Shown: piece by piece, positions 19,150 through 19,560 of the stretch
How the letters are laid out: every line of letters starts with the position of its first letter
Numbering within the stretch: position 1 is the stretch's first letter
Assembly: GCA_964016885.1 (NCBI GenBank)
Contig: OZ024763.1
Span: 558,001 to 622,000, forward strand
DNA from: Eledone cirrhosa
Lineage: Eukaryota
Direction of reading: 5' to 3'
Length of the DNA: 64,000 nt
Translations under genes and position numbers: made by a program
The notes under the pieces: generated by a model
Database searches by the model: none
The model's input: the letters and a program-made list of their open reading frames with translations, nothing else
What the model was told of the DNA's origin: nothing

Positions 19150-19151
<2 letters not shown>

Positions 19152-19560
19152 TCCAAAATTAAGATAAATGAATTAAATCTAAATCGAAATGATGGGTGTC
19201 ATGACATAATGCATGCGCCATATATCCTGAGAACTTAAGCTCAAAGATAAATAAACCTGAGCATATTATAGTAACTAGCTATGCGCGGTTTCACGCAAGC
19301 TTAAATTATCTCCTGTGATTATTCATGTATTTTTATATGTTAATCAACCTCTAGTTATTATATATATATATTATTTCTGAAGATAGCATATATATGTGTA
19401 CGTATGTATATTCCCTCTGATAGTTTGTATAAATATTGTACATAGATCTATAGAATATGCATACCAACTCTAACACATATATATCCTAGAAACGATCGTA
19501 AAATGATGAATTTTTTTAATATAAGGAACTGTTTCTTTGTTTATTCATTATTTTATTAAT
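19150..19560 (+). mobile_element. Probable Penelope-like element 3' end (ORF C-terminus plus pseudo-LTR with hammerhead)
   Basis: Bounded by (TA)n on both sides. Frame ends ...IKINELNLNRNDGCHDIMHAPYILRT* (LNRxxG resembles the GIY-YIG C-terminus of PLEs), followed by an intact hammerhead. Confidence 0.6.
19373..19504 (+). ncRNA. Type I hammerhead ribozyme, intact core, long stem II
   Basis: ATTT-CTGAAGA-TAG...CTA-GAAA-C-GATC-GTA^AAAT. Stem I ATTT/AAAT. Stem II TAG/CTA, ATATATATGTGT/ACACATATATAT and GTATGTATATTC/GAATATGCATAC. Palindromic stem III ACGATCGT. Confidence 0.78.

What the first reader, a model, noticed from the sequence alone, without database searches (positions are those of the whole stretch)
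19150..19560. Intact long-stem-II hammerhead on the sense strand of the RERE intron, downstream of a GIY-YIG-like ORF end
Seen: all core nucleotides are present (CUGAAGA 19377-19383; GAAA 19489-19492; GUA^ at 19500), with stem I AUUU/AAAU, palindromic stem III ACGAUCGU and a ~105-nt stem II with two 12-bp helices. A diverged motif with the same GAAACGATCGTA and a similar stem II length lies at 50889-51027(-). About 140 nt upstream a frame ends in LNRNDG...*. Inference: this is the 3' end of an autonomous PLE. Unlike the fold-back copies it has no antisense arm to sequester it, so it is the best candidate to cut host pre-mRNA, probably only as a dimer given the short palindromic stem III. Such a long stem II is atypical for minimal PLE hammerheads.
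Basis: partly seen in the sequence, partly recalled or inferred. Interest (0 to 1): 0.75.

Follow-up and report, generated by a model that had tools for sequence, protein, structure and literature searches.

The report
Long-armed hammerhead from Hydra-clade retrotransposon
This is a 196-base leftover of a young, abundant jumping gene in an octopus-type genome; it carries a complete hammerhead self-cutting RNA motif with an arm about four times longer than in the published relatives compared here, but it is one of thousands of similar copies and likely does little to the host gene whose intron holds it.

Summary
The hammerhead is real: core, 8-bp stem I, palindromic stem III and a 105-nt stem II are at the stated places, sense in a ~108-kb RERE intron. 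It is one of thousands of copies (5,368 pattern matches against 2 controls). Its parent is a Hydra-clade Penelope-like element with intact 817-aa ORFs. Related subfamilies keep the fold by compensatory changes, including C3-G8 to U3-A8, with 93-113-nt arms; published Hydra arms are 12-26 nt. The LNRNDG frame is the antisense tail of a different, non-coding repeat; the real endonuclease ends 1.1-2.6 kb upstream in other copies. The motif at 50889-51027 is a truncated relative whose CTGACGA is foreign. Cutting of host pre-mRNA is unlikely: no same-family partner in the intron, stem I and III are not predicted to form, inserted copies decay near-neutrally, and eight other sense hammerheads share the intron. 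Copies start most often 7 nt before the core, just after a conserved AATAAA, and not at the cut site, so templates were uncut. This scan noted long-stem Hydra hammerheads before in this genome. Verdict: new variant of a known kind; cleavage untested.

The parts
19370..19565 (+). Solo copy of the hammerhead-bearing pseudo-LTR tip of a Hydra-clade PLE (family A), from 7 nt before C3 to 65 nt after the cut site, between (TA)n tracts
   Evidence: 96.5% identical to the copy behind an ORF in L134
19369..19376 (+). Stem I, 5' strand (pairs with 19501-19508)
   Evidence: compensatory changes across subfamilies
19377..19383 (+). Core C3-A9
   Evidence: U3-A8 version in a homologous subfamily
19384..19488 (+). 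105-nt stem II arm: first pair (U-A here, C.A in most copies), 2 bp, C.C mismatch, two 12-bp helices, distal helix and apex
19418..19448 (+). Distal motif of the arm, sequence-conserved across subfamilies (14 of 22 positions identical in 6 representatives, against 9 of 64 in the helix arms)
19489..19500 (+). GAAA, palindromic stem III (8-nt) and predicted cleavage site after 19500
   Evidence: dimer duplex -10.0 kcal/mol, monomer pair probability 0.01 or less
19501..19508 (+). Stem I, 3' strand
19144..19367 (.). Separate two-armed insertion of a non-coding repeat (family B): antisense arm 19144-19278, sense arm 19273-19367; holds the LNRNDG frame on its antisense strand
36721..36825 (+). RERE exon (BAH region) closing the host intron
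50845..50991 (-). 5'-truncated copy of a related long-arm family (F2, core CCGAAGA, 93-nt arm); the core is missing here

Best explanation
This is a solo, 196-base copy of the hammerhead-bearing pseudo-LTR of a young Hydra-clade Penelope-like retrotransposon, inserted in a TA microsatellite in a RERE intron, where it is likely inert. Shown: the same motif lies about 350 nt before the ATG and 1.1-2.6 kb after the stop of intact 817-aa RT-endonuclease ORFs; the fold and the C3-G8 pair covary between subfamilies; copies end at two fixed sites 65 and 197 nt past the cut site and most often begin 7 nt before the core. Inferred: the element's RT starts internally at one of the two sites on an RNA whose hammerhead has not cut, and copies back to an RNA 5' end at the start of stem I (made either by poly(A)-type cleavage after the conserved AATAAA or by an initiator-like TCATT), which gives this copy. 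In the parent the ribozyme would cut only as a dimer of two tandem copies or with help from the element's protein, for which the long arm is a likely binding or folding platform. The intronic copy lacks a partner, the upstream signals and the downstream RT start region, so it would cut rarely.
For: Parent ORFs and spacing: sense core within 1.5 kb after the stop in 9 of 12 loci; hammerheads on both sides of the ORF in 4 of 7 regions, 4.0-5.1 kb apart. Hydra motifs RWR, DKT, CxCX5C, CxxC/CxH match the definition in PMC8557442 section 11. Copy number: 5,368 against 2; U3-A8 version 1,306 against 4; arms of 8-38 nt only 50. Covariation: cognate lower-arm pairs 9 of 9 in five subfamilies, 3-8 of 9 when arms of A1, A3 and U3A8 groups are swapped; 8 of 19 pairs change on both sides, 93% of cells paired against 26-44% when slid. 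Ends: 36 of 64 copies at +61 to +69 and 21 of 64 at +197; 31 of 99 copies picked by a downstream anchor begin within -20..+2 of C3, 12 at -7. AATAAA 3-10 nt before the TCAT in most long copies of all seven subfamily groups but U3A8a (3 of 8). Inertness: stem I probability 0.0 in 260- and 500-nt context, stem III 0.01 or less; core mutated in 11 of 864 cells against 127 of 6,336 in the arm among 72 full copies. Literature: monomers inactive, dimers weak (PMC4209133); a PLE hammerhead cut only with its protein and uncut RNA was the main template (PMC11167929).
Against: No cleavage or expression data were obtained. Folding predictions in AT-rich RNA ignore co-transcriptional folding and proteins; in the 151-nt context stem I forms with probability 0.3-0.6. 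A short-arm hammerhead with the same 8-nt stem III lies sense in the same intron 77 kb upstream (C24:500507) and could in principle pair. The core is slightly less mutated than the arm (1.3% against 2.0%). The -7 pile-up could come from RT stalling or microhomology rather than an RNA end, and many junctions are ambiguous by a few bases. Clade assignment rests on motifs, not on a tree with named Hydra proteins. The pattern count includes both arms of inverted pairs and some internal matches in the U3-A8 subfamily.
Confidence: 0.75

Rival explanations
1. One reading: the 3' end of an autonomous PLE whose GIY-YIG ends at LNRNDG 140 nt upstream, and whose solo sense hammerhead cuts RERE pre-mRNA as a dimer.
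For: Sense orientation in the RERE intron; intact core; no antisense arm of this family in the intron; one possible stem III partner at C24:500507; a chimeric family B-to-A insertion exists elsewhere (L262), so the two repeats can share an RT.
Against: LNRNDG frame is antisense non-coding family B; true ORF end elsewhere; active fold not predicted; eight other sense motifs in the intron; intronic hammerhead cuts left splicing largely intact in work summarised by PMC2995048.
Confidence: 0.07
2. The copy is an ordinary 5'-truncated 3' end: RT pauses or loses the template after melting the long arm and stem I, and AT-rich microhomology joins it to the target; no RNA end lies at -7.
For: Inverted pairs join at a short AT palindrome in stem I; several -7 junctions share bases with another repeat; 5'-truncation with inversion is standard for PLEs (PMC3846280).
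Against: The whole upstream UTR is AT-rich, yet 31 of 99 copies stop in one 23-nt window in several junction types; AATAAA and TCAT are kept just there while flanks diverge.
Confidence: 0.35
3. The long arm is tolerated filler, a hairpin expanded by template slippage, with no role beyond closing stem II.
For: Arm length varies 93-113 nt and the middle helix diverges; a few short-arm deletions exist.
Against: Long arms outnumber short ones 5,368 to 50; all 9 representatives fold better than shuffles (z -1.4 to -5.3); the distal motif is as conserved as stem I.
Confidence: 0.35

Closest known systems
Hydra clade of C-terminal EN+ Penelope-like elements and their hammerheads, incl. Hydra-1_Obim (Craig et al. 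2021, PMC8557442; passages, section 11, supplement parts 2-3 of 59 read)
   Same: [quoted passage not shown]
   Different: Stem II plus loop is 12-26 nt in the 26 Hydra rows of File S2 (counted by hand; 23 nt in Hydra-1_oBim) against 93-113 nt here; unit 4.0-5.1 kb against under 3 kb; this stem III sequence was not found in the supplement (0 hits); fixed C.C mismatch; U3-A8 and U4C cores in sister subfamilies.
Minimal type I hammerheads of metazoan PLEs (Cervera and De la Pena 2014, PMC4209133; parts 1-2 of 4 read)
   Same: In pLTRs, mostly solo or inverted copies, palindromic stem III, U3-A8 variant, dimer requirement, low activity.
   Different: Their 'large' helix II is 6-8 bp; here about 35 bp in three helices with an 8-9-bp stem I.
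Poseidon element of Anolis (Frangieh et al. 2024, PMC11167929; parts 1-2 of 4 read)
   Same: Two internal RT start sites that define a one-sided tail; uncut RNA as template; AT-rich targets.
   Different: Tail 132 nt here against 30-40; start sites and hammerhead lie before the ATG, not in the ORF; different clade.
Conserved intronic hammerheads of amniotes (RECK, C10orf118) and the discontinuous Clec2 hammerhead (passages of PMC6155905 and PMC3088659)
   Same: Sense hammerhead in a host transcript; very long insertion in one helix is tolerated in Clec2.
   Different: Those are single, conserved, shown active; this is a recent copy among thousands, and the long helix is II, not I.

Membership tests
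Type I hammerhead ribozyme | Core CUGANGA, GAAA, NUH with three helices | tested here: met
Type I hammerhead ribozyme | Structure kept by compensatory change, including the 3-8 tertiary pair | tested here: met
Type I hammerhead ribozyme | G10.1-C11.1 pair closing stem II | tested here: not met
   U-A in the window, C.A or A.C in most subfamilies, followed by a purine-pyrimidine pair; U.U at this place is common in Hydra hammerheads and a U10.1-U11.1 variant is described in PMC3088659, so this lowers expected rate, not the class
Type I hammerhead ribozyme | Self-cleavage after H17 | not testable with these tools
   needs in vitro or cyclic-phosphate data
Hydra-clade PLE (parent) | Single ORF with RT and C-terminal GIY-YIG | tested here: met
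   817-aa ORFs with YRDD at 346 and YIG at 711; Pfam gave no significant match for fragments; homologues carry PF26215
Hydra-clade PLE (parent) | RWK motif, DKT, CxCX5C linker, CxxC and CxH, no CCHH | tested here: met
   RWR at 37 (RWK in the related ORF of L057), DKT 115, CxCX5C 677, CxxC 775, CxH 803
Hydra-clade PLE (parent) | Insertion in (TA)n; pLTR hammerhead; tandem and inverted layout with one-sided tail | tested here: met
Hydra-clade PLE (parent) | RT groups with named Hydra families in a tree | not tested
   named Hydra proteins were not available as sequences to the tools
Non-LTR retrozyme | Tandem non-coding monomers each with a hammerhead | tested here: not met
   family A copies are solo, inverted or ORF-linked; neighbouring family B does form ~520-540-nt tandems
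Domesticated intronic hammerhead | Conserved at the orthologous intron position in related species | not testable with these tools
   no relative genomes held

The most novel reading that the evidence does not exclude
In this Hydra lineage the hammerhead is a processing switch placed right behind the element's poly(A) signal: host cleavage after AATAAA leaves a downstream RNA that begins with stem I, the 100-nt arm shields that end and docks the element's RT through its conserved distal motif, and the complex either cuts to a 5'-OH end that spares the next tandem unit from 5'-3' decay or stays uncut and is reverse-transcribed into the thousands of 196- and 328-nt solo copies.
Probability: 0.2. 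Interest if true: 0.7.

Novelty: new variant of a known kind. Interest (0 to 1): 0.36.

Why it matters
Hammerheads in Penelope-like elements are known, but their job is not. This family is young, has intact ORFs and natural variants of core and arm, so it is a ready test system for whether the element's protein assists cutting and what defines the RNA's ends. Arms near 100 nt would be missed by short-stem search patterns, so such ribozymes are probably undercounted. As a regulator of RERE the single copy matters little.

Tried and rejected
Rfam scan: no hammerhead among the rows shown. Repeat finder swamped by microsatellites. Family searches for RERE domains in the genome gave no answer or nothing; solved with a homologue peptide. 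Pfam: nothing for the LNRNDG peptide, three parent fragments (one weak DUF hit, E 0.05) or the exon; PDB nothing for the parent ORF. Sequencing runs: no RNA holder listed; contigs of two runs of unknown kind showed cover but no end or strand. I first took the parent for Neptune, then corrected to Hydra on motifs. RNAalifold on the MAFFT alignment did not recover stem II because the lower helix is out of register between subfamilies; the anchored count replaces it. It paired the distal GAUC with the stem III loop; a 4-nt loop is too short for this and no covariation supports it. A k-turn in the arm and a DPE at +28 were checked by eye and did not hold across subfamilies. A sharp pile-up of 5' ends at the cut site was sought and not found: about 9 of 99 copies start within -10..+13 of it, most with bases from before the cut. 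One search failed by a BLAST setting and was rerun. Four rows were misaligned and were read by eye; 5' ends at -81 to -373 there are mostly alignment breaks in duplicated UTR, counted as long copies. Lunse et al. 2017 on dimeric PLE hammerheads was not held and may show longer stems than the papers read.

Full report
Observation. Stem I has 8 pairs, one G-U. The arm folds into two 12-bp helices and a distal hairpin (arm z -5.3). None of 30 shuffled windows gave such a motif. The host is RERE on the + strand: exon 36721-36825 equals octopus RERE-like proteins and the previous exon is at C24:486202-486285, so the intron is about 108 kb.

What it belongs to. 19370-19565 is a high-copy repeat (52 matches from 40 of 1,576 candidates scored, mostly 88-98% identical). 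The pattern core-N95-120-stem III matches 5,368 places against 2 controls; with 8-38 nt between the halves it matches 50. Longer copies lead to a single ORF with RT and C-terminal GIY-YIG. A protein search returned 84 matches from 83 scored candidates, most 92-98% identical, several in open frames of 834 codons. A sense hammerhead lay within 1.5 kb after the stop in 9 of 12 loci. Of 7 long regions fetched, 4 had hammerheads on both sides of the ORF, 4.0-5.1 kb apart, the upstream cut site about 350 nt before the ATG. The protein has RWR, DKT, CxCX5C, CxxC and CxH, the stated marks of the Hydra clade (PMC8557442 section 11).

The LNRNDG frame. 19150-19352 is a different repeat. It has no similarity to three full-length parents, and 32 of 34 copies read H in place of D. 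In the loci shown it begins at (TA)n or follows its own tandem unit, with no ORF upstream (output cut in part). In the window it is a two-armed insertion of its own, and the frame lies on the strand opposite to that family's hammerhead. The two families are neighbours in a few other loci and one insertion switches from B to A (L262), so they may share an RT, but the frame is not an endonuclease end.

The second motif. Relatives of 50889-51027 match only up to about 50991. Their core is CCGAAGA with a 93-nt arm and a 9-bp stem I; the window copy has lost it, and its CTGACGA has no stem I.

Selection on the fold. A homologous subfamily has U3-A8 in place of C3-G8 (1,306 matches against 4 controls; aligned). 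Anchored at the core, five subfamily groups pair 9 of 9 lower-arm positions with their own partner and 3-8 of 9 with partners from the other main groups; F2 pairs 6 of 9 before a bulge. All but the unrelated family F4 share a first mismatch or U-A pair, two pairs and a pyrimidine mismatch. On 18 aligned sequences 8 of 19 pairs change on both sides and 93% of cells pair, against 26-44% when slid (related sequences inflate the shuffle test). A distal motif is identical at 14 of 22 positions in 6 representatives, the helix arms at 9 of 64. After insertion the copies decay near-neutrally: core 11 of 864 cells, arm 127 of 6,336, stem III CpG 11 of 288; 63 of 72 full copies keep the core. The window copy is intact because it is young.

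How the copy arose. 3' ends fall at +61 to +69 (36 of 64) or +197 (21 of 64) from the cut site, a 132-nt tail; in a Poseidon element such ends mark two internal RT start sites (PMC11167929). Both sites lie downstream of the cut, so every copy that holds the core came from uncut or religated RNA (inference). In 99 copies picked by a downstream anchor, 31 begin within -20..+2 of C3, 12 of them at -7, with no sharp group at the cut. Position -7 is the A of a TCATT kept in most subfamilies, 3-10 nt after an AATAAA. An initiator-like start is described for other Penelope pLTRs (PMC2377424, PMC3846280; passages); poly(A)-type cleavage fits as well; one paper search for Penelope, hammerhead and polyadenylation signal returned only a review, whose passages on that term I did not read. 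RT stalling remains a rival.

Would it cut RERE? Probably not much. Monomer stem III has probability 0.01 or less, stem I 0.3-0.6 in 151 nt but 0.0 in 260 and 500 nt of context. No other family A copy lies in the intron; one short-arm motif with the same stem III is 77 kb upstream. The descriptor finds 9 sense motifs in this intron including this one. PLE hammerheads were inactive as monomers and weak as dimers (PMC4209133) or needed the element's protein, and intronic hammerhead cuts left splicing working in studies summarised by PMC2995048. No RNA data could be had.

Novelty. Hydra hammerheads in File S2 of PMC8557442 span 12-26 nt in stem II (26 rows; longest in the sheet about 54, a plant element; counted by hand). 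Searches for long or extended stem/helix II with hammerhead gave no PLE example near 100 nt in listings or the passages read (6 bp counts as long in PMC13725137); Lunse et al. 2017 and other supplements were not seen. The retrozyme preprint 10.64898/2026.07.22.740005 (part 1 of 5) and review passages add context only. This scan already noted long-stem Hydra hammerheads and the C.C mismatch in this genome, though no look-alike of this sequence. Verdict: a real, well-supported structural variant of a known ribozyme in a known clade; the host-regulation reading is unlikely.

Noticed in passing
family B, e.g. L037, L038, L049 (window fragment 19144-19367): A ~520-540-nt tandem non-coding repeat with its own U3-A8 hammerhead, 45-nt stem II and an apparently 9-bp stem III that could work as a monomer; its copies end at two sites about 130 nt apart. 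Retrozyme-like; the window fragment stops short of the ribozyme.
   Followed up: partly
L262:350-850: One insertion switches from a family B arm into family A at the core, a template switch between two hammerhead RNAs.
   Followed up: partly
window 18690-19105 and 25550-25830: Fold-back insertions with short (30-31-nt stem II) hammerheads on both strands; solo relatives at 11148, 16458 and 56149 on the minus strand.
   Followed up: no
L128 (C1:64.13 Mb): An unrelated family with the same stem III, a canonical G10.1-C11.1 pair and a branched 96-nt stem II, so long arms arose or spread more than once.
   Followed up: partly
L005, L006, L066, L072-L075, L084: A SINE-like repeat is repeatedly joined to family A exactly at stem I, in two cases between duplicated core bases.
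   Followed up: no
L178, +60 to +170 and +190 to +250 from the cut site: Stems begin a few bases after each of the two 3' end sites, as earlier notes of this scan report for Hydra elements; the window copy ends before them.
   Followed up: partly
L057, L058: Several different Hydra-type ORFs are nested within 10 kb.
   Followed up: no
C24:486-702 kb: 19 hammerhead-like motifs by a strict descriptor, 11 sense and 8 antisense to RERE: no sign of sense depletion in this one gene.
   Followed up: partly
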